Under the pieces are notes generated by a model, which was not told the DNA's origin, searched no databases, and saw only the letters and a program-made list of their open reading frames with translations. A stretch of DNA of 39,760 nt from a virus (taxonomy: Duplodnaviria; Heunggongvirae; Uroviricota; Caudoviricetes): the IMG/VR virus record IMGVR_UViG_2711768002_000014. One strand, written 5' to 3'. Shown here in pieces: positions 9,788 to 38,900 of the stretch. Within the stretch, counting starts at the first letter, position 1. Every line of letters begins with the position of its first letter. Both the position numbers and the translations under genes were made by a program.

Positions 9788-10597
9788 ATGAATAATCTGA
9801 TGGTCATTGATGGTATTGAAGTTCGTCGTGATGCTTATGGGCGTTACAGCCTGAACGATCTGCACAGGGCAGCCGGGGGAGAACAAAAAAACCGCCCGAA
9901 ATACTGGCTCTCCAATAAGCAAACCTGTGAATTGATTGAACAACTTTTCACCGAGGGTGGAATTCCGCCTCTGGAACAAAATCAACCAGTTAGCGTCATT
10001 AATGGCGGAAATAACCAGGGGACGTATGTCTGCAAAGAACTGGTGTATGCCTATGCAATGTGGATCAGCCCGTCATTCCATCTGAAGGTGATCCGTACTT
10101 TCGACATGGTAACCAGCGCACCGGAAAAATTATCCGGACAGGCTGCTGACAAGATGCAGGCTGGCGTGATCCTGCTGGACTTTATGCGCCGGGAATTAAA
10201 TCTGTCTAACTCATCAGTGCTTGGAGCCTGTCAGAAGCTTCAGGAGGCTGTTGGCTTACCGAATCTGGCACCGCGCTATGCCATTGATGCTCCTGCTGAC
10301 GCGCCTGATGGCTCAAGTCGCCCCACGCTGTCGCTGAGTGCACTGCTGAAGCAGTATGGTATCCGCCTGACGGCTAATCAGGCATATCACCAGATGGTGA
10401 AGCTGGGGATCGTTGAACAACGCGAACGATACAGCCGTACCGCGATTAACAACATCAAAAAATTCTGGTCGCTGACGGCGAAAGGCTGCATGTTCGGCAA
10501 GAACATCACCAGTCCTGCAAATCCGCGCGAGACGCAGCCGCATTTCTTCGAATCCCGATTCCCTGAGCTGTTAAAGCTGCTCGATACCGTTCATTGA
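9788..10597 (+). CDS. KilA-N domain protein
   Basis: AGGAG upstream of ATG 9788; N-terminal MVIDGIEVRRDAYGRYSLNDLHRAAGG is KilA-N-like. Confidence 0.7.
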   Translation: MNNLMVIDGIEVRRDAYGRYSLNDLHRAAGGEQKNRPKYWLSNKQTCELIEQLFTEGGIPPLEQNQPVSVINGGNNQGTYVCKELVYAYAMWISPSFHLKVIRTFDMVTSAPEKLSGQAADKMQAGVILLDFMRRELNLSNSSVLGACQKLQEAVGLPNLAPRYAIDAPADAPDGSSRPTLSLSALLKQYGIRLTANQAYHQMVKLGIVEQRERYSRTAINNIKKFWSLTAKGCMFGKNITSPANPRETQPHFFESRFPELLKLLDTVH

Positions 10598-14912: not shown

Positions 14913-15135
14913 NNNNNNNNNNNNNNNNNNNNNNNNNNNNNNNNNNNNNNNNNNNNNNNNNNNNNNNNNNNNNNNNNNNNNNNNNNNNNNNNNNNNNNNN
15001 NNNNNNNNNNNNNNNNNNNNNNNNNNNNNNNNNNNNNNNNNNNNNNNNNNNNNNNNNNNNNNNNNNNNNNNNNNNNNNNNNNNNNNNNNNNNNNNNNNNN
15101 NNNNNNNNNNNNNNNNNNNNNNNNNNNNNNNNNNN
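14913..15135. other. assembly gap (223 N)
   Basis: Run of n. Confidence 1.
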
Positions 15136-24977: not shown

Positions 24978-25721
24978 ATGACCACACCAAATCCACTGGC
25001 AAAAACGAAAGGTGCGGGAACGACGTTCTGGATGTATACCGGCAAGGGCGATGCGTTTGCGAACCCTTTATCGGACACTGACTGGCTGCGTCTTGCGATG
25101 GTGAAGGATCTGCAACCTGGCGAAATGACCGCTGATGCAGAAGATGACACTTATCTCGATGATGAAGATGCAGACTGGAAAACGACAACCCAGGGGCAGA
25201 AATCCGTTGGTGATACTTCGGCGACGCTGGCCTGGCGTCCGGGTGACAGCGGGCAGAAAAAACTGGTTCAGTTGTTCGACTCCGGTGAAGTCTGCGCGTT
25301 TCGTATCAAATATCCCAACGGTACTGTTGATGTTTTCCGTGGCTGGCTGAGTTCACTGGGTAAAACCATTGCCTCAAAAGACGTGATGACCCGCACAGTG
25401 AAAATCAGCGGTGTGGGGCGTCCGTATCTGGCAGAGGAAGGCACTGAAACAGTGAGCGTTACCGGGCTGACGGTGGCACCGGCATCTGCCAGTGTAAAAG
25501 TGGGAGCAACCACCACGCTGACCTTTACAGTAAAACCTGACGGAGCCAGTGACAAAGCGATCAGTGTGCATTCGACAGATCCACAGACTGCCACGGTGAC
25601 CCTGAACGGGCTTGTGGCCACGGTGAAAGGCGTGAAGCAGGGCAGTGTCAGCATTGTGGGCATGACCGCTGACGGGAATTTTGTGGCAGTGGCTACGGTG
25701 ACTGTCAGCGCAGCAGGTTAA
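24978..25721 (+). CDS. V: major tail protein V (with C-terminal Ig-like domain)
   Basis: AAGGAGG upstream; KGAGTTFWMY...YLDDEDADW...YPNGTVDVFRGW closely matches remembered lambda V. Confidence 0.9.
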   Translation: MTTPNPLAKTKGAGTTFWMYTGKGDAFANPLSDTDWLRLAMVKDLQPGEMTADAEDDTYLDDEDADWKTTTQGQKSVGDTSATLAWRPGDSGQKKLVQLFDSGEVCAFRIKYPNGTVDVFRGWLSSLGKTIASKDVMTRTVKISGVGRPYLAEEGTETVSVTGLTVAPASASVKVGATTTLTFTVKPDGASDKAISVHSTDPQTATVTLNGLVATVKGVKQGSVSIVGMTADGNFVAVATVTVSAAG

Positions 25722-25741
25722 CAGGACGATACTCATCATTT

Positions 25742-25765
25742 GCCCCGGTTATTCGGGGCTTTTTT
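25742..25765 (+). terminator. hairpin plus T-run after V
   Basis: gccccggttattcggggc followed by tttttt. Confidence 0.55.
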
Positions 25766-25781
25766 ACAGGTGGAGAACATG

Positions 25782-26168
25782 ATGTTTCTGAAACAGGACA
25801 CGTTTAATTATGAAAAACAGTCCGTGGTGCTCAGTGAGCTGTCCGGGCTGCAGAGAATTGAATATCTGACGTTTGTTCAGCAGCGAACGGCAAAGTTTGA
25901 TGCCGGGGAGGGAGAACTGCCGGAGGCTGAACGACAGATTGCTTTTCTGCGGATGGGGATGGATATCAATGCCTGGCTGGTTTCCCGCTCACTGTGGAAT
26001 GCGGAACAGTCTCAGGATGTTGAGACGCTTTACGCATCCGTTATTACAACATGGTCGTATGATGCCCTGGGTGCGGGGGCGGAGATGGTTCTGTCGCTGA
26101 GCGGTATGGGGGCCATTGATAATGCCGGGGATTTGGAGCATGAGGGGCTGACGCCGGAAAAGTCCTGA
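25782..26168 (+). CDS. G: tail assembly chaperone G
   Basis: MFLK...LSELSGLQRIEYL parallels lambda G; start ATG 25782 is 7 nt after GGAG (ATG 25779 also possible). Confidence 0.85.
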   Translation: MFLKQDTFNYEKQSVVLSELSGLQRIEYLTFVQQRTAKFDAGEGELPEAERQIAFLRMGMDINAWLVSRSLWNAEQSQDVETLYASVITTWSYDALGAGAEMVLSLSGMGAIDNAGDLEHEGLTPEKS

Positions 26169-26506
26169 CGCGGGAAATGCAGTTTGTCATGCGGCTTGCC
26201 CGGGAGTTCCGGCGGGCAGACTGGCGGCGGATGCTGTCGGAAATGTCGGCCACTGAGCTTGGTCAGTGGGGCGATTATTTCCGGATGCAGAGCTTCAGTG
26301 ATGTGTGGATGGATGCGCAGTTTGCCTCGCTGAAGGCATTGATCGTGAGAATGGTGTCCGGCAGCAGTGATGCTGCGGTGGCTGATTTCAGCCTTTTACC
26401 GGAAGAGAACGGGATACCGGAGCGAACGGACGAAGAACTGATGCATCTTGGGGAAGGTATTTCCGGAGGTGTGCGTTATGGACCAGATAGCCAACCTGGT
26501 CATTGA
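25782..26506 (+). CDS. T: tail assembly chaperone G-T fusion via -1 programmed frameshift
   Basis: T-like ORF lies in the -1 frame overlapping the G 3' end; candidate slip site GGAAAAG at 26156-26162; open -1 frame from there to 26506. Confidence 0.55.
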
Positions 26507-29500
26507 TTTGGGGATTGATGCGGCAGAGTTTAAAAATGAAATTCCCCGTATCAAAAACCTTCTGAATGGTGCAGCCAGCGATGCAGAACGGTCTTCTGCC
26601 CGTATGCAGCGTTTTATGGAGCGTCAGACTCAGGCCGCCCGGCAGACAACGCAGGCGGCTTCTTCGGCTGCAACAGCCGCATCCGTCCATGCGCAGACGG
26701 TGGAGAAGAACGCACAGGCTCATGAACGCATGTCCCGCGAGGTGGAGAAAACCCGCCAGCGCATGGAGGCACTGAGCCAGAAAATGCGCGAGGAACAGGC
26801 GCAGGCCATGGCTCTGGCGGAGGCTCAGGATAAAGCGGCTGCTGCGTTTTATCGTCAGATTGACAGTGTGAAACAGGCCAGTGCGGGGCTGCAGGAATTA
26901 CAGCGTATTCAGCAGCAGATCCGACAGGCCAGAAACAGTGGCGGGATTGGTCAGCAGGATTATCTGGCGCTGATTTCTGAGGTTACGGCGAAAACCCGTG
27001 TTCTTACACAGGCTGAGGAAGAGGCTACCCGACAGAAAGTGGCGTTTATCCGTCAGCTTAAAGAGCAGGCAACCCGCCAGAATCTTTCATCTTCTGAGTT
27101 GCTTCGTGCTAAGGCTGCCCAGCTGGGGGTAAGCAGTGCTGCAGAAGTGTATATCCGCAAAATGGAGCAGGCAGGAAAAGCCACGCATTCGCTGGGTCTG
27201 AAAAGTGCAGCAGCCCGCCAGGAGATAGGCGTTCTGATAGGTGAACTGGCCCGCGGCAATTTAGGGGCGCTGAGGGGGTCCGGAATAACGCTGGCTAACC
27301 GTGCCGGATGGATAGACACACTGATGTCACCGAAAGGCATGATGCTGGGCGGGGTTATTGGCGGTATTGCCGCGGCTGTCTATGGTCTGGGTAAAGCCTG
27401 GTATGACGGTCAGAAGGAGGGGGAAGAATTTAACCGCCAGTTGTCGCTGACGGGGCATTATGCCGGAGTCACTGCCGGGCAGCTGTGGACGCTCAGTCGT
27501 GCTATTTCCGGGAATGGTATTACGCAACATGCTGCAGCCGGTGCGCTGGCTCAGGTGGTGGGGAGTGGTGCATTTCGTGGAAACGATATCGGTATGGTGG
27601 CGAGAGCTGCCGCACAGATGGAGCGATCGGTTGGCCAGTCGGTCAGCGATACCATAAATCAGTTTAAGCGGCTGAAGGATGATCCTGTAAATGCCGCGAA
27701 GGCTCTGGACAATGAGCTGCATTTTCTTACTGCCACTCAGCTTGAGCAGATACGCGTCCTTGGGGAACAGGGGCGGTCCAGTGATGCGGCACGGATAGCC
27801 ATGTCTGCACTGGCAGAGGAAACCGGTCGGCGTACTGCGGATATTGATAATAACCTCAATGCGCTGGGCAGTACGCTGAAGTATCTGTCTGATTTATGGA
27901 GTCGTTTCTGGGATGCGGCCATGAATATTGGTCGTGAAGACTCGCTGGATGAACAGATTTCCGCTTTACAGGAGAAAGTGTCGCGGGCGAAAAGACTCCC
28001 CTGGACGGCATCATCTTCTCAGGTTGAGTACGATCAGCAGCGTCTTAACGAGCTTCAGGAGAAAAAACGCCAGAAGGATTTGCAGGATGCAAAAGAGCAG
28101 GCAGAGCGGAATTATCAGGAGCAACAGAAACGCCGTAATGCTGAAAATGCTGCACTGAACCGGATGAATGAAACGGAAGCAGCACGACATCAGCGTGAAA
28201 TTGCGCGTATTAATTCCATGCAGTACGCCGATCAGGCTGTCAGGGATGCGGCGATACAACGTGAAAATGAACGTTACGAGAAAGCCCTGGCATCCGGTAA
28301 GAAAAAAACACGCGAACCCCGTAATGATGAGGCCACCCGGTTATTGCTGCAGTACAGTCAGCAACAGGCACAGGTGGAAGGACAGATTGCTGCTGCCAGA
28401 CAGTCAGCAGGCATTGCCACGGAAAGGATGACAGAAGCGCATAAACAGCTTCTGGCTCTGCAGCAGCGCATCAGCGACCTGGACGGGAAAAAACTGACGG
28501 CAGATGAAAAGAGTGTGCTGGCCCGTAAAGATGAACTGATTCAGGCACTGACGCTGCTGGATGTAAAACAGCAGGAGCTTCAGAAACAGACGGCACTCAA
28601 CGAGCTGAAGAAAAAAACAATTCAGCTGACCAGTCAACTGGCTGAAGAAGAGCGCGCTCAGCGTCAGCAACATGACCTGGATATCGCCACGGTGGGTATG
28701 GGTGATCAGCAGCGGCAGCGATATCAGGTACAACTGAGTCTTCGCCAGAAATACCAGCAACAGCTGGAGCAGTTGAGGCGGGATAGTGAGCAGAAAGGAA
28801 CATATAACACGGATGACTACAGAAAGGCCGAGCAGGCGCTGACGGAGAGCCTGAACCGACAACTGAATGAGAATCGCCGTTACTGGCAACAGCTTGAAGT
28901 TGTGCAGGGTAACTGGAAAAACGGAGTCCTGCGTGCATTTCAGGATTTTACCGTGGATGCAGATAATACGGCAGGAACAGCAGAACAGGTGTTCTCGTCA
29001 GCCTTCAGCAACATGGGAAATGGCCTGGCAACTTTTGTCACTACCGGCAAACTCAATTTCAAATCCTTCACCTCTTCTGTGCTGTCAGATATGGCGAAAA
29101 TCCTGGCGCAGGCAACCATGATGAAATCGATAAAAGGGATTGGCAGTGTACTGGGATTTGATCTCAGCAGCCTTTCCCTGAATGCCAATGGGGGGATTTA
29201 TCAGTCTGCTGATTTGAGTCGTTACAGTGGCACGGTGGTTAACCGTCCGACGTTTTTTGCTTTTGCAAAAGGCGCGGGTGTGATGGGGGAAGCGGGACCT
29301 GAAGCCATTCTGCCACTGCGTCGTGGTGCTGACGGTAAGCTGGGGGTTGTGGCGGATATTGGTGGTTCAGGTATGGCGATGTTTGCCCCGCAGTACAACA
29401 TCGAGATCAATAACGATGGCACGAACGGGCAGATAGGTCCGGCTGCCCTGAAGGTGGTTTATGACCTTGGGAAAAAAGCGGCAGCGGACTTTATGCAACA

Positions 29501-29543
29501 GCAGGCCCGTGATGGTGGTCGGTTAAGTGGAGCATATCGGTAA
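26478..29543 (+). CDS. H: tail tape measure protein H
   Basis: 1021 aa, coiled-coil rich; GGAGG upstream of ATG 26478. Confidence 0.9.
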   Translation: MDQIANLVIDLGIDAAEFKNEIPRIKNLLNGAASDAERSSARMQRFMERQTQAARQTTQAASSAATAASVHAQTVEKNAQAHERMSREVEKTRQRMEALSQKMREEQAQAMALAEAQDKAAAAFYRQIDSVKQASAGLQELQRIQQQIRQARNSGGIGQQDYLALISEVTAKTRVLTQAEEEATRQKVAFIRQLKEQATRQNLSSSELLRAKAAQLGVSSAAEVYIRKMEQAGKATHSLGLKSAAARQEIGVLIGELARGNLGALRGSGITLANRAGWIDTLMSPKGMMLGGVIGGIAAAVYGLGKAWYDGQKEGEEFNRQLSLTGHYAGVTAGQLWTLSRAISGNGITQHAAAGALAQVVGSGAFRGNDIGMVARAAAQMERSVGQSVSDTINQFKRLKDDPVNAAKALDNELHFLTATQLEQIRVLGEQGRSSDAARIAMSALAEETGRRTADIDNNLNALGSTLKYLSDLWSRFWDAAMNIGREDSLDEQISALQEKVSRAKRLPWTASSSQVEYDQQRLNELQEKKRQKDLQDAKEQAERNYQEQQKRRNAENAALNRMNETEAARHQREIARINSMQYADQAVRDAAIQRENERYEKALASGKKKTREPRNDEATRLLLQYSQQQAQVEGQIAAARQSAGIATERMTEAHKQLLALQQRISDLDGKKLTADEKSVLARKDELIQALTLLDVKQQELQKQTALNELKKKTIQLTSQLAEEERAQRQQHDLDIATVGMGDQQRQRYQVQLSLRQKYQQQLEQLRRDSEQKGTYNTDDYRKAEQALTESLNRQLNENRRYWQQLEVVQGNWKNGVLRAFQDFTVDADNTAGTAEQVFSSAFSNMGNGLATFVTTGKLNFKSFTSSVLSDMAKILAQATMMKSIKGIGSVLGFDLSSLSLNANGGIYQSADLSRYSGTVVNRPTFFAFAKGAGVMGEAGPEAILPLRRGADGKLGVVADIGGSGMAMFAPQYNIEINNDGTNGQIGPAALKVVYDLGKKAAADFMQQQARDGGRLSGAYR

Positions 29544-29881: not shown

Positions 29882-30866
29882 ATGCAGGATATTCCACAGG
29901 AAACACATCATGAGACGACACGCCTCACTCAGTCAGCCCAGGTGGTGCTCTGGGAAATCGATCTGACAGAGGTCGGTGGAGAACGTTATTTTTTCTGTAA
30001 TGAGCAGAACGAAAAAGGTGAGCCGGTCACCTGGCAGGGGCGACAGTATCAGGCGTATCCCATTCAGGGGACGGGATTTGAACTGAACGGCAAGGGCAGT
30101 GCTGCCCGTCCGACACTGACGGTTNNNNNNNNNNNNNNNNNNNNNNNNNNNNNNNNNNNNNNNNNNNNNNNNNNNNNNNNNNNNNNNNNNNNNNNNNNNN
30201 NNNNNNNNNNNNNNNNNNNNNNNNNNNNNNNNNNNNNNNNNNNNNNNNNNNNNNNNNNNNNNNNNNNNNNNNNNNNNNNNNNNNNNNNNNNNNNNNNNNN
30301 NNNNNNNNNNNNNNNNNNNNNNNNNNNNNNNNNNNNNNNNNNNNNNNNNNNNNNNNNNNNNNNNNNNNNNNNNNNNNNNNNNNNNNNNNNNNNNNNNNNN
30401 NNNNNNNNNNNNNNNNNNNNNNNNNNNNNNNNNNNNNNNNNNNNNNNNNNNNNNNNNNNNNNNNNNNNNNNNNNNNNNNNNNNNNNNNNNNNNNNNNNNN
30501 NNNNNNNNNNNNNNNNNNNNNNNNNNNNNNNNNNNNNNNNNNNNNNNNNNNNNNNNNNNNNNNNNNNNNNNNNNNNNNNNNNNNNNNNNNNNNNNNNNNN
30601 NNNNNNNNNNNNNNNNNNNNNNNNNNNNNNNNNNNNNNNNNNNNNNNNNNNNNNNNNNNNNNNNNNNNNNNNNNNNNNNNNNNNNNNNNNNNNNNNNTCG
30701 CGGCGATGAGTGCGGTTATCACGGTCCGGCGGTCGCGGATGAATATGATCAGCCGACGTCCGATATCACGAAGGATAAATGCAGCAAATGCCTGAGCGGC
30801 TGTAAGTTTCGCAATAACGTCGGCAACTTTGGCGGCTTCCTTTCCATTAACAAACTTTCGCAGTAA
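29882..30866 (+). CDS. L: minor tail protein L (interrupted by an assembly gap)
   Basis: N-terminal 81 aa and C-terminal ~55 aa (RGDECGYHGPAVADEYDQPTSDITKDKCSKCLSGCKFRNNVGNFGGFLSINKLSQ) match remembered lambda L; middle replaced by N. Confidence 0.85.
30125..30697. other. assembly gap (573 N)
   Basis: Run of n; flanks do not preserve the L reading frame. Confidence 1.
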
Positions 30867-35975: not shown

Positions 35976-38900
35976 ATGGCAGTAAAGATTTCAGGTGTAC
36001 TGAAAGACGGCACAGGAAAACCGGTACAGAACTGCACAATCCAGCTGAAAGCAAAACGTAACAGCACCACGGTGGTGGTGAACACGCTGGCCTCAGAAAA
36101 TCCGGATGAAGCCGGGCGTTACAGCATGGACGTTGAGTACGGTCAGTACAGCGTTATTCTGTTGGTGGAAGGATTCCCGCCGTCACATGCCGGGACCATC
36201 ACCGTGTATGAAGATTCCCGACCCGGTACGCTGAATGATTTTCTCGGTGCCATGACGGAGGATGATGCCCGTCCTGAGGCACTGCGCCGCTTTGAACTGA
36301 TGGTGGAAGAGGTGGCGCGTAACGCGTCCGCGGTGGCACAGAACACGGCAGCCGCGAAGAAATCAGCCAGCGATGCCAGCACATCAGCCCGTGAGGCGGC
36401 AACCCGTGCGACTGATGCTGCAGGCTCAGCACGAGCAGCCAGCACGTCAGCCGGACAGGCCGCTTCGTCGGCTCAGTCTGCGTCTTCCAGCGCAGGAACG
36501 GCATCAGCAAAGGCCACTGAAGCATCAAAAAGTGCTGCCGCTGCAGAGTCCTCAAAAAGCGCGGCGGCCACCAGTGCCGGTGCGGCGAAAACGTCAGAAA
36601 CGAATGCGGCAGCGTCACAACAATCAGCTGCCACTTCTGCATCCACCGCGACCACGAAAGCGTCAGAAGCAGCCACCTCAGCCAGAGATGCGTCGGCTTC
36701 AAAAGAGGCGGCAAAATTATCAGAAACGAGCGCAGCTTCGAGCGCCAGTAATGCCGCTTCCTCGGCAACGGCGGCAGGAAATTCCGCGAAGGCGGCAAAG
36801 ACGTCTGAGACAAACGCTAAGTCCTCTGAAACGGCAGCAGCACAGAGTGCCTCCGCAGCAGCAGGCTCAAAAACAGCGGCTGCGTCGTCTGCCAGTGCAG
36901 CGTCAACAAGTGCCGGGCAGGCCTCAGCCAGTGCTAGCGCCGCCGGAAAATCGGCAGAAAGCGCCGCATCGTCCGCTTCAACAGCCACAACGAAGGCTGG
37001 CGAAGCCACTGAACAGGCCAGTGCAGCAGCGAGGTCTGCTTCCGCAGCGAAGACATCGGAGACGAACGCGAAAGCGTCGGAGACCAGCGCAGAATCCTCA
37101 AAAACGGCTGCCGCATCGTCCGCCAGTTCGGCGGCGTCATCGGCATCATCGGCGTCTGCTTCAAAAGATGAGGCGACCAGACAAGCGTCCGCAGCGAAGG
37201 GCAGCGCCACGACAGCATCCACGAAGGCGACAGAGGCTGCTGGCAGTGCGACGGCGGCAGCACAGAGCAAAAGTACGGCGGAATCCGCGGCAACGCGCGC
37301 CGAGACAGCAGCAAAACGGGCAGAGGATATTGCATCCGCCGTGGCGCTTGAGGATGCGAGCACGACGAAAAAGGGGATAGTACAGCTCAGTAGTGCGACT
37401 AATAGCACGTCTGAAACGCTGGCGGCAACGCCAAAGGCAGTAAAAGCAGCCAATGACAATGCTGAGAAACGTCTGCAGAAAGACCAGAACGGCGNNNNNN
37501 NNNNNNNNNNNNNNNNNNNNNNNNNNNNNNNNNNNNNNNNNNNNNNNNNNNNNNNNNNNNNNNNNNNNNNNNNNNNNNNNNNNNNNNNNNNNNNNNNNNN
37601 NNNNNNNNNNNNNNNNNNNNNNNNNNNNNNNNNNNNNNNNNNNNNNNNNNNNNNNNNNNNNNNNNNNNNNNNNNNNNNNNNNNNNNNNNNNNNNNNNNNN
37701 NNNNNNNNNNNNNNNNNNNNNNNNNNNNNNNNNNNNNNNNNNNNNNNNNNNNNNNNNNNNNNNNNNNNNNNNNNNNNNNNNNNNNNNNNNNNNNNNNNNN
37801 NNNNNNNNNNNNNNNNNNNNNNNNNNNNNNNNNNNNNNNNNNNNNNNNNNNNNNNNNNNNNNNNNNNNNNNNNNNNNNNNNNNNNNNNNNNNNNNNNNNN
37901 NNNNNNNNGAACAACATTAACGCGGTCAGTAAAACAGACTTTGCTGATAAGCGTGGTATGCGTTATGTGCGGGTTAACGCTCCTGCAGGTGCAACATCTG
38001 GAAAATATTACCCTGTTGTTGTTATGCGTTCTGCTGGCTCAGTAAGCGAACTGGCATCAAGGGTCATTATCACCACGGCAACGCGAATCGCAGGCGATCC
38101 GATGAATAACTGCGAGTTTAACGGATTTGTTATGCCTGGTGGCTGGACTGACAGGGGGCGTTATGCTTATGGAATGTTCTGGCAATATCAAAACAATGAA
38201 CGAGCCATCCACTCAATAATGATGAGTAATAAGGGCGATGATTTGCGCTCTGTGTTCTATGTTGATGGCGCTGCTTTCCCTGTTTTTGCGTTTCTCGAAG
38301 ATGGCCTGTCAATATCCGCACCTGGTGCTGATCTCGTTGTTAATGATACGACCTATAAGTTTGGGGCAACAAATCCGGCGACTGAATGTATCGCGGCGGA
38401 CGTTATCCTTGATTTTAAGAGTGGGCGTGGTTTTTATGAGTCTCATTCGTTAATCGTTAACGATAACTTGTCGTGCAAAAAACTTTTTGCCACAGACGAA
38501 ATTGTAGCGCGTGGTGGTAATCAGATTCGAATGATAGGTGGGGAGTATGGTGCATTATGGCGTAATGATGGCGCTAAAACTTACCTGCTGCTTACCAATC
38601 AAGGTGATGTTTATGGTGGCTGGAATACATTAAGACCGTTTGTTATTGATAACGCAACCGGCGAACTGGTTATTGGAACCAAACTGTCTGCAAGTCTGAA
38701 CGGTAACGCATTGACAGCAACAAAGCTGCAAACGCCAAGACTGGTTTCTGGTGTTGAGTTTGATGGTTCCAAAGATATTACTTTAACCGCCGCGCATGTG
38801 GCTGCTTTTGCCAGAAGGGCAACGGATACATATGCCGATGCGGATGGTGGCGTTCCATGGAATGCCGAATCAGGCGCTTACAATGTCACCCGCTCTGGCA

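What the first reader, a model, noticed from the sequence alone, without database searches (positions are those of the whole stretch)
26150..26180. G-T programmed -1 frameshift with a non-canonical slip site
The T reading frame is open in the -1 frame from the end of G, as in lambda, but the only plausible heptamer near the G stop is G GAA AAG (26156-26162) rather than lambda's G GGA AAG.
Basis: partly seen in the sequence, partly recalled or inferred. Interest (0 to 1): 0.45.

Follow-up and report, generated by a model that had tools for sequence, protein, structure and literature searches.

The report
Phage tail-chaperone G-T frameshift site
This is the ordinary lambda-type ribosomal frameshift that makes the G-T tail-assembly chaperone of a lambdoid E. 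coli prophage; its 'odd' slip sequence GGAAAAG is the commonest one among the relatives sampled and is already annotated as the slip site in phage N15.

Summary
G (25782-26168, Pfam Phage_TAC_2) ends at TGA 26166-68. The -1 frame is open from 26144 to 26506 and carries a Phage_tail_T domain. The 22-nt overlap has no canonical X_XXY_YYZ heptamer, only G_GAA_AAG at 26156-62.

The interpretation (programmed -1 frameshift giving a G-T fusion) is well supported by comparison:
- The site aligns exactly with lambda's G_GGA_AAG.
- CCG-GAA-AAG is codon-invariant in 59 unique relatives down to ~51-58% protein identity, next to a hypervariable linker.
- In some lineages the overlap shrinks to 19 nt around it.
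- Protein conservation in the -1 frame starts right after the Lys, upstream of the annotated ATG.
- That ATG is missing in several lineages.

It is not new. Phage N15's GenBank record marks GGAAAAG as the "slippery sequence for -1 translational frameshift". Gifsy-2, in the same clade with the same junction, is annotated as a frameshift hybrid. Phi80 and mEp213 carry the heptamer too. Among 378 loci, lambda's GGGAAAG is the minority state.

The invariant core is the A_AAG tetramer. Whether tRNA-Glu co-slips is unresolved, and efficiency is unmeasured. RefSeq still annotates G and T as separate genes in about a third of complete E. coli genomes.

The parts
24978..25721 (+). Major tail (tube) protein, lambda gpV-like with a C-terminal Ig-like domain; upstream neighbour of G
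   Evidence: Pfam Phage_TTP_12 E=1.5e-66 and Big_2 E=4.8e-12; ORF list
25742..25769 (+). Terminator-like hairpin GCCCCGGTTATTCGGGGC followed by a T-run, between V and G
   Evidence: Consensus scan. The equivalent site is annotated as a rho-independent terminator in mEp460, Ayreon and N15
25782..26168 (+). Gene G, tail assembly chaperone (128 aa from ATG 25782; an in-frame ATG also lies at 25779); 0-frame product gpG
   Evidence: Pfam Phage_TAC_2 PF06894 E=1.2e-40. PGAP start corresponds to 25782. Family alignment starts at MFLK
26141..26143 (+). TGA stop in the -1 frame; upstream limit of the region where a shift into T is possible
26142..26147 (+). Shine-Dalgarno-like GAGGGG (GAGG core 10 nt 5' of the heptamer); possible upstream stimulator (inferred, untested)
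   Evidence: Anti-SD duplex -7.4 kcal/mol. Comparable elements end 7-12 nt upstream in most lineages of this clade but are absent from N15-type and lambda
26156..26162 (+). Slip site G_GAA_AAG (0 frame CCG GAA AAG); the core is the A_AAG tetramer at 26159-26162
   Evidence: aligned with lambda G_GGA_AAG; invariant in 59 unique clade sequences and in about 290 of 378 loci; identical heptamer and register annotated as the slippery sequence in N15
26166..26168 (+). TGA stop of G, one sense codon after the slip site
   Evidence: the position one codon after AAG is conserved across the clade
26162..26506 (+). T segment read in the -1 frame after the shift (114 codons plus stop). The predicted gpGT fusion is 25782..26162 joined to 26162..26506, 241 aa
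   Evidence: Pfam Phage_tail_T PF06223 E=2.5e-14; fusion translation; alignment with lambda gpGT
26177..26179 (+). ATG used as the T start in RefSeq/PGAP and mEp460 annotation; probably an internal Met of gpGT
   Evidence: It aligns with Leu in lambda and is ATT or CTT in other lineages. Weak SD, -4.3 kcal/mol at 2-nt spacing
26478..29543 (+). Tape measure protein (gpH-like); its start overlaps the end of T and is preceded by GGAGG
   Evidence: Pfam TMP_2, Tape_meas_lam_C and TMP_4; SD -10.8 kcal/mol

Best explanation
This is a lambda-type programmed -1 ribosomal frameshift. Most ribosomes translating G read CCG GAA AAG TCC and terminate at TGA 26166, giving gpG (128 aa). A small fraction slip back one base on G_GAA_AAG (26156-62). 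tRNA-Lys (anticodon mnm5s2UUU) moves from AAG to the cognate AAA. Either it slips alone (A_AAG tetramer mode), or peptidyl-tRNA-Glu slips with it from GAA to GGA, tolerating a G.U pair at the middle position. Translation then continues as ...TPEK-VLTREMQF... to TGA 26504, giving a 241-aa gpGT fusion whose C-terminal T domain is the lambda gpT homologue. By analogy with lambda, gpG and the G part of gpGT coat the tape-measure protein, and the T part recruits the tail tube protein. Shown here: the ORF geometry, the homology, the positional equivalence with lambda's site and the codon-level conservation. Inferred: that slippage occurs, its frequency, which tRNAs move, and any stimulation by the upstream GAGG.
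For: (1) Identity and context. G is PF06894 and T is PF06223, lying between a lambda-type tube protein and the tape measure.
(2) Geometry. The -1 frame is open only from 26144, and the sole conserved slip-prone site in the 22-nt overlap is G_GAA_AAG.
(3) Alignment of the predicted fusion with lambda gpGT puts the two heptamers at the same column. Similarity in the -1 frame begins immediately after the Lys.
(4) Conservation. CCGGAAAAG(T/C)CC-TGA is invariant across E. coli and Salmonella relatives down to about 51-58% G identity, while the 20 residues before it are hypervariable. P, E and K each use a single codon in 59/59 unique sequences. Only 7 of the other 42 conserved degenerate columns are single-codon.
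(5) In lineages L102 and L104 the overlap is only 19 nt (T TCG CCG GAA AAG TCC TGA), leaving no other site.
(6) The annotated ATG is not conserved. Gifsy-2-type, phi80/mEp213-type, L300-type and L274-type lineages (and the GGCAAAA-type environmental contigs L105/L106) have no ATG/GTG/TTG between the slip site and the conserved LAREF motif. The motif [VA][LF]xxE[LMI]xF precedes any start codon family-wide.
(7) Precedent. The N15 record annotates GGAAAAG (GCG GAA AAG) as the 'slippery sequence for -1 translational frameshift'. The Gifsy-2 T homologue is annotated 'part of G+G' frameshift hybrid protein'.
(8) Literature. A_AAG is the most shift-prone tetramer in E. coli (PMC4066793). Natural A_AAG sites with a non-slippery P codon exist: IS1222 G_CGA_AAG and B. 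subtilis cdd A_CGA_AAG (PMC5009743).
(9) Variants G_GCA_AAG (L269) and A_GAA_AAG (L275) keep only A_AAG.
Against: No experimental evidence for the fusion exists for this phage or, in the literature I could search, for this heptamer in any G-T gene.

In a reconstituted E. coli system G GAA AAG was chosen as the unfavourable control and gave mainly 0-frame product (PMC6924986).

The A_AAG tetramer without stimulators was at background, about 0.15%, in reporter assays (PMC4066793).

No significant or conserved downstream structure was found: z = -0.96 and -0.37, and the alifold consensus is -9.8 kcal/mol with little covariation.

In this particular lineage an ATG lies 9 nt after the G stop, so some T could be made by reinitiation.
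Confidence: 0.85

Rival explanations
1. G and T are two independently translated genes, as RefSeq/PGAP and the mEp460 record annotate them. T would start at ATG 26177, possibly by termination-reinitiation 9 nt after the G stop, and no frameshift is needed.
For: An ATG is present at 26177 in this lineage and is used as the start. The short distance to the G stop would allow coupling.
Against: The ATG is ATT or CTT in sister lineages and Leu in lambda. Several lineages have no start codon before the conserved LAREF motif. The -1-frame peptide upstream of the ATG (VLTRE) follows the family-wide pattern. The SD is weak and badly spaced: -4.3 kcal/mol against -6.4 for G and -10.8 for H. Independent genes would not explain the codon-level invariance of CCG GAA AAG. 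From prior knowledge, not tested here: Xu, Hendrix and Duda 2013/2014 reported that in lambda T acts only when fused to G.
Confidence: 0.08
2. The shift occurs at the other in-register tetramer of this window, G_GGG (26144-26147), rather than at G_GAA_AAG.
For: It lies inside the open overlap and is a Z_ZZN tetramer.
Against: It is present only in this window and its 100% identical twin. The other sampled relatives have GCG or GTG at that codon or diverge there. In several lineages the -1 frame is closed at that position. G_GGG is not among the six tetramers that the E. coli reporter study ranked well above background with a pseudoknot (PMC4066793).
Confidence: 0.03
3. The invariant Pro-Glu-Lys is conserved because the C-terminus of gpG needs these residues. 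The heptamer is a by-product and is not used for recoding.
For: P, E and K are conserved at the amino-acid level.
Against: Synonymous codons are never used: 59/59 for each of three consecutive codons. Other clades replace the residues (GK in lambda and Serratia-type, AK in L269) while always keeping A_AAG. The downstream -1 ORF encodes a conserved domain that lacks its own start in many lineages.
Confidence: 0.03
4. The fusion arises by transcriptional slippage of RNA polymerase on the A run.
For: A run of four A is present.
Against: Four A is far below the roughly 7-9 or more residue runs known to support productive transcriptional realignment (general knowledge; reviewed in PMC5009743). The run length is fixed at four in the ~290 GGAAAAG-type loci and three in lambda-type.
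Confidence: 0.01

Closest known systems
Phage lambda G / G-T programmed -1 frameshift (Levin, Hendrix & Casjens 1993; Xu, Hendrix & Duda 2004, 2013, 2014)
   Same: Homologous G and T (PF06894, PF06223). Same gene order V-G-T-H. The slip site is at the same alignment column. Lys AAG occupies the A site. The fusion continues K|V[LF]xxE...LAREF.
   Different: The P-site codon is GAA (Glu) rather than GGA (Gly), so re-pairing in the -1 frame has a middle-position G.U instead of a cognate match. The G stop follows after one codon instead of five. An SD-like GAGG lies 10 nt upstream, which lambda lacks.
Phage N15 genes 14/15 (also phi80 and mEp213): annotated slippery sequence GGAAAAG
   Same: Identical heptamer in the identical register (xxG GAA AAG YCC), annotated in GenBank NC_001901 as the 'slippery sequence for -1 translational frameshift'.
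   Different: N15's G is only about 33% identical to the window's G. The N15 site is 6 codons before the stop, as in lambda. No SD-like element lies upstream.
Salmonella prophage Gifsy-2 STM1039 / STM1041.1n
   Same: Same clade (fusion 54.5% identical). The junction ACG CCG GAA AAG TCC TGA is identical. The T homologue is annotated as 'part of G+G' frameshift hybrid protein'.
   Different: Gifsy-2 has no start codon near the T N-terminus, whereas the window has ATG 26177. The record does not name the slip site.
A_AAG tetramer -1 frameshift sites: IS1222 G_CGA_AAG and Bacillus subtilis cdd A_CGA_AAG
   Same: The A-site tRNA-Lys slips from AAG to AAA and is preceded by a P-site codon that cannot re-pair cognately (PMC5009743).
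   Different: Those are a transposase and a cellular gene. Here the P-site tRNA-Glu can still form a G.U-containing pairing with GGA, which CGA-reading tRNA-Arg cannot form with the overlapping -1 codon.
dnaX / IS911-type -1 frameshifting stimulated by an upstream Shine-Dalgarno-like sequence
   Same: A GAGG/GGAG element ends 7-12 nt 5' of the heptamer in most lineages of this clade. This is within the 6-17 nt range used for such stimulators (PMC4066793).
   Different: No downstream hairpin or pseudoknot is detectable. The SD-like element is absent from the L109/L111 lineage and from N15-type GGAAAAG sites, so it is not a general requirement. Its effect is untested.

Membership tests
Lambda-type G/GT tail assembly chaperone with programmed -1 frameshift | Two overlapping ORFs located between the major tail (tube) gene and the tape-measure gene | tested here: met
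   V 24978-25721, G 25782-26168, T frame 26144-26506, H 26478-29543
Lambda-type G/GT tail assembly chaperone with programmed -1 frameshift | The upstream ORF is a gpG homologue | tested here: met
   PF06894 Phage_TAC_2, E=1.2e-40, 138.6 bits against a cutoff of 27
Lambda-type G/GT tail assembly chaperone with programmed -1 frameshift | The downstream ORF is in the -1 frame relative to G, overlaps its 3' end, and is a gpT homologue | tested here: met
   Frame analysis; PF06223 Phage_tail_T, E=2.5e-14; alignment to lambda gpGT
Lambda-type G/GT tail assembly chaperone with programmed -1 frameshift | Canonical X_XXY_YYZ slippery heptamer in register within the overlap | tested here: not met
   None of the seven in-register positions is X_XXY_YYZ. 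G_GAA_AAG has only the Z_ZZN half. The same departure is seen in N15, phi80, mEp213 and Gifsy-2, which are treated as family members
Lambda-type G/GT tail assembly chaperone with programmed -1 frameshift | The slip-prone site is conserved at the nucleotide level among relatives | tested here: met
   59/59 unique sequences have CCG GAA AAG. 376 of 378 loci have an in-register A_AAG or A_AAA at the junction
Lambda-type G/GT tail assembly chaperone with programmed -1 frameshift | The T portion has no translation start of its own | tested here: inconclusive
   The window has ATG 26177 with a weak SD. Gifsy-type, phi80-type, L300-type and L274-type lineages have no start before LAREF
Lambda-type G/GT tail assembly chaperone with programmed -1 frameshift | A G-T fusion protein is made at a few percent of gpG and is needed for tail assembly | not testable with these tools
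   Needs western blot or mass spectrometry, a reporter assay and phage genetics
A_AAG tetramer-type -1 frameshift sites in E. coli | In-register Z_ZZN = A_AAG, allowing cognate re-pairing of tRNA-Lys on AAA | tested here: met
   26159-26162. A_AA.G ranks first in the tetramer hierarchy (PMC4066793)
A_AAG tetramer-type -1 frameshift sites in E. coli | A flanking stimulator is needed for more than background efficiency | tested here: inconclusive
   An upstream SD-like GAGG is present in this clade. No conserved downstream structure was found. The effect is not measurable here
dnaX/IS911-type SD-stimulated -1 frameshift | An SD-like sequence 6-17 nt upstream together with a downstream hairpin or pseudoknot | tested here: not met
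   The SD-like element is present, but there is no significant downstream structure (z = -0.96; weak alifold consensus) and no Rfam match

The most novel reading that the evidence does not exclude
The mEp460/cdtI/Gifsy clade may have swapped lambda's efficient tandem-slip heptamer for a weak site that works only with help. That help could come from the conserved SD-like GAGG 10 nt upstream, from the stop codon one codon downstream, or from both. Both slip-site tRNAs (Glu and Lys) carry mnm5s2U34. The G:GT ratio of these prophages, present in about a third of complete E. coli genomes, could therefore depend on host 2-thiouridine and sulfur status even more than lambda's does. The site would then be a natural case of SD-stimulated A_AAG tetramer frameshifting in a structural phage gene.
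Probability: 0.2. Interest if true: 0.4.

Novelty: already known. Interest (0 to 1): 0.18.

Why it matters
The practical value is in annotation. This G/T allele occurs in 1,846 of 5,426 complete E. coli genomes, and in every RefSeq/PGAP record inspected and the mEp460 and Ayreon records it is drawn as two separate genes with an ATG-started 'T'. The likely real product, a 241-aa gpGT fusion, is missing from the records inspected. Searches restricted to X_XXY_YYZ heptamers will miss it. Biologically, the survey shows that within the gpG/gpT relatives sampled here the textbook lambda heptamer is the exception. Selection holds only the A_AAG core, which fits the A-site-centred rules for bacterial -1 frameshifting. 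No new principle is involved.

Tried and rejected
(1) Downstream stimulatory structure. Single-sequence folds of 26163-26262 and 26120-26240 were not better than shuffles (z = -0.96 and -0.37). RNAalifold on 12 diverse clade members gave -9.8 kcal/mol with almost no covariation. Rejected as unsupported.

(2) Rfam scan of 25700-26600 at E<=1 gave no match.

(3) The idea that an upstream SD generally compensates for the weak heptamer. It holds for most of the mEp460/Gifsy clade but fails for L109/L111 and for all N15-type GGAAAAG sites. Kept only as a lineage-specific possibility.

(4) Database G-T 'fusion' proteins P0033 and P0047 as evidence of natural slip-site indels. They turned out to be internal deletions, not 1-nt changes at the heptamer.

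(5) The genome-contig scan with the family alignment returned only 9 loci. These were useful mainly for the Serratia and Symbiopectobacterium GGGAAAG examples.

(6) Literature search for GGAAAAG as a frameshift site found no phage paper in the held library. Xu et al. 2004 (Mol Cell) is not held, and the PRFect supplement has no entry for N15. I could not confirm how the primary literature lists N15's heptamer. The evidence used is the GenBank feature itself.

(7) Motif enrichment. GGAAAAG is not over-represented in the window.

Full report
**What is at the coordinates**

The window is a lambdoid E. coli prophage or phage of the mEp460 / cdtI / Ayreon / Tritos group. Over 25740-26510 it is 97.7-99.2% identical to those phages and 100% identical to a prophage of E. 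coli A14.

The local gene order is as follows.
- A lambda-type tail tube protein with an Ig-like domain, 24978-25721.
- A terminator-like hairpin, 25742-25769.
- G, 25782-26168.
- A -1-frame ORF running to 26506.
- The tape-measure gene, 26478-29543.

G matches Pfam Phage_TAC_2 (lambda gpG) at E=1.2e-40. The -1 ORF matches Phage_tail_T at E=2.5e-14.

In the G frame the 3' end reads CCG GAA AAG TCC TGA. GGAAAAG is at 26156-26162 and the stop at 26166-26168. The -1 frame is closed by TGA at 26141-43 and open from 26144.

The 22-nt overlap has seven in-register positions and none is X_XXY_YYZ. Two are Z_ZZN tetramers: A_AAG within GGAAAAG, and G_GGG at 26144-47. G_GGG is specific to this window; the other sampled relatives of this clade have GCG or GTG there or diverge at that codon.

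As a bare motif GGAAAAG is unremarkable, with 8 copies in the window against 5.7 expected.

**Is it the slip site?**

Five lines of comparative evidence say yes.

1. Alignment with lambda. When the predicted fusion is aligned with lambda gpGT, the two heptamers fall at the same position. Similarity in the -1 frame starts directly after the Lys: lambda ...SAGK|VFDGELSFALKLAREM against window ...TPEK|VLTREMQFVMRLAREF.

2. Nucleotide invariance. In 215 loci recovered with G and with three divergent homologues, every E. coli and Salmonella member carries CCGGAAAAG(T/C)CC-TGA, down to about 51-58% G identity. The sequence just upstream, and the roughly 20-residue linker it encodes, vary freely.

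3. Synonymous sites. In 59 unique G sequences, Pro, Glu and Lys each use one codon. Only 7 of the other 42 conserved degenerate columns are single-codon.

4. Overlap length. In two lineages (L102, L104) the overlap is only 19 nt, T TCG CCG GAA AAG TCC TGA. No alternative site is left there.

5. No conserved start for T. The ATG at 26177, which RefSeq/PGAP and the mEp460 record use as the T start, is ATT or CTT in sister lineages and Leu in lambda.
   - Gifsy-2-type, phi80/mEp213-type, L300-type and L274-type lineages have no ATG/GTG/TTG between the slip site and the conserved LAREF motif.
   - The pattern [VA][LF]xxE[LMI]xF[AV]xxLAREF is nevertheless conserved family-wide.
   - The window's ATG has a weak, badly spaced SD: -4.3 kcal/mol, against -6.4 for G and -10.8 for H.

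**It is already recognised**

A tblastn of the fusion against annotated phages found 186 records.

- In phage N15 (NC_001901) a misc_feature labelled 'slippery sequence for -1 translational frameshift' covers record positions 10027-10033. I read these as GGAAAAG in the register GCG GAA AAG CCC.
- Phi80 and mEp213 have the same heptamer.
- Gifsy-2 belongs to the window's own clade and has the identical junction ACG CCG GAA AAG TCC TGA. Its T homologue is annotated 'part of G+G' frameshift hybrid protein; Lambda gpT homolog'.

After adding N15-like and lambda-like loci the survey covered 378 loci.

| Heptamer | Position relative to the G stop | Loci | Lineage |
|---|---|---|---|
| GGAAAAG | one codon before | about 207 | mEp460 / cdtI / Gifsy clade |
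| GGAAAAG | five codons before | about 81 | N15 / phi80 type |
| GGGAAAG | five codons before | 79 | lambda proper (nearly identical copies) |
| GGGAAAG | one codon before | 2 | Serratia and Symbiopectobacterium prophages |
| G_GCA_AAG | five codons before | 1 | L269 |
| A_GAA_AAG | five codons before | 1 | L275 |
| G_GCA_AAA followed directly by TAG | adjacent | 7 | environmental contigs |

Lambda's G groups with the N15-type proteins (46-53% identity), and all other sampled members of that group carry GGAAAAG or a single-base variant of it. The two heptamers differ by a single transition. Each of the two C-terminal architectures contains both states. The only invariant is A_AAG.

**Mechanism**

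A_AAG is the most shift-prone tetramer in E. coli because the single tRNA-Lys re-pairs cognately on AAA (PMC4066793; PMC5009743). Natural sites with a non-slippery P codon are known: IS1222 G_CGA_AAG and B. subtilis cdd A_CGA_AAG.

Here the P-site tRNA-Glu would face GGA in the -1 frame, which is a middle-position G.U. Peng et al. used exactly G GAA AAG as the unfavourable comparator to G GGA AAG. They saw mainly 0-frame product with wild-type EF-G and more with EF-G tip mutants (PMC6924986). In reporter assays the bare tetramer was at background without stimulators and reached 5.6% with a pseudoknot.

The site is therefore expected to be weaker than lambda's, which shifts at about 4% (PMC3296357).

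I looked for helpers.
- No significant or conserved downstream structure.
- No Rfam match.
- An SD-like GAGG/GGAG (anti-SD duplex -5.6 to -9.5 kcal/mol) ends 7-12 nt upstream of the heptamer in most lineages of the window's clade. It is absent from L109/L111, from N15-type sites and from lambda.

The SD-like element is therefore at best a lineage-specific stimulator, and this is inference only.

Both slip-site tRNAs, Glu and Lys, are substrates of the 2-thiouridine pathway that modulates lambda G:GT. That makes dependence on host tRNA modification plausible but untested.

**Rivals**

- Independent initiation of T at ATG 26177 cannot be excluded as a minor route in this lineage. It does not explain the codon invariance or the start-less relatives.
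- A shift at the window-specific G_GGG is unlikely.
- Protein-level conservation of Pro-Glu-Lys is unlikely as the sole cause.
- Transcriptional slippage on four A is unlikely.

**Verdict**

It is not novel. The heptamer is 'non-canonical' only relative to lambda, is the majority state among the relatives sampled, and has been annotated in N15 and implied in Gifsy-2.

Two things remain unknown: the efficiency, and whether one or two tRNAs slip.

The useful by-product concerns annotation. This allele, present in 1,846 of 5,426 complete E. coli genomes, is drawn as two separate genes in every record of it that I inspected.

Noticed in passing
window 25742-25769: Strong terminator-like hairpin (GCCCCGGTTATTCGGGGC followed by T6) in the 57-nt gap between the tail tube gene and G. 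The equivalent site is annotated as a rho-independent terminator in mEp460, Ayreon and N15. It would lower G/T/H transcription relative to the tube protein.
   Followed up: partly
window 26142-26147; L095, L102 and L104 about 10 nt 5' of the heptamer: A Shine-Dalgarno-like GAGG/GGAG(G) ends 7-12 nt upstream of GGAAAAG in most lineages of the mEp460/Gifsy clade, even though the encoded peptide is hypervariable. It is absent from L109/L111, N15-type loci and lambda. It may be a lineage-specific frameshift stimulator.
   Followed up: partly
L105-L108 (IMG/VR environmental contigs), end of the G homologue: These distant gpG homologues (~35-40% identity) end ...CTG GCA AAA TAG, with the -1 ORF continuing IAARE..FA.RLAREF. 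The candidate site is A_AAA directly abutting the stop codon, a different arrangement from both lambda and the window.
   Followed up: no
L269 and L275 (N15-like IMG/VR contigs), slip position: Single-locus variants G_GCA_AAG and A_GAA_AAG sit at the homologous position, so only the A_AAG tetramer is invariant. They could also be sequencing errors or defective prophages.
   Followed up: no
window about 25965-26000 (G codons 62-73, NAWLVSRSLWN): A run of conserved residues in G shows almost no synonymous variation across 59 unique sequences, with several single-codon columns in a row. This lies far from the slip site and is unexplained; strong protein constraint, recombination or an RNA/DNA-level constraint are possible.
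   Followed up: no
proteins P0033, P0047, P0001: Database 'G' proteins that are G-T fusions through internal deletions. P0047 joins WSYDA directly to GKVLTREMQF, entering the -1 frame upstream of the slip. P0001 carries an internal duplication of G. These are probably decayed prophages or assembly artefacts.
   Followed up: partly
window 26465-26506: The tape-measure gene starts at ATG 26478, preceded by GGAGG (26465-69), and overlaps the last 29 nt of the T frame (stop 26504-06). Lambda's T/H also overlap, though by only 8 nt. The ORF listing entry starting at TTG 26448 is probably too long.
   Followed up: partly
window 14913-15135, 30125-30697, 37495-37908, 35234: Runs of N (223, 573 and 414 nt, plus a single N) interrupt the window. 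The 30125-30697 run masks most of the gpL-like minor tail gene just downstream of the tail module.
   Followed up: no
L001 2141-2158 (mEp460 record), equivalent to window about 26380-26397: The mEp460 record annotates a second 'rho-independent terminator' inside the T coding region. The consensus terminator scan of the window did not find one there.
   Followed up: partly
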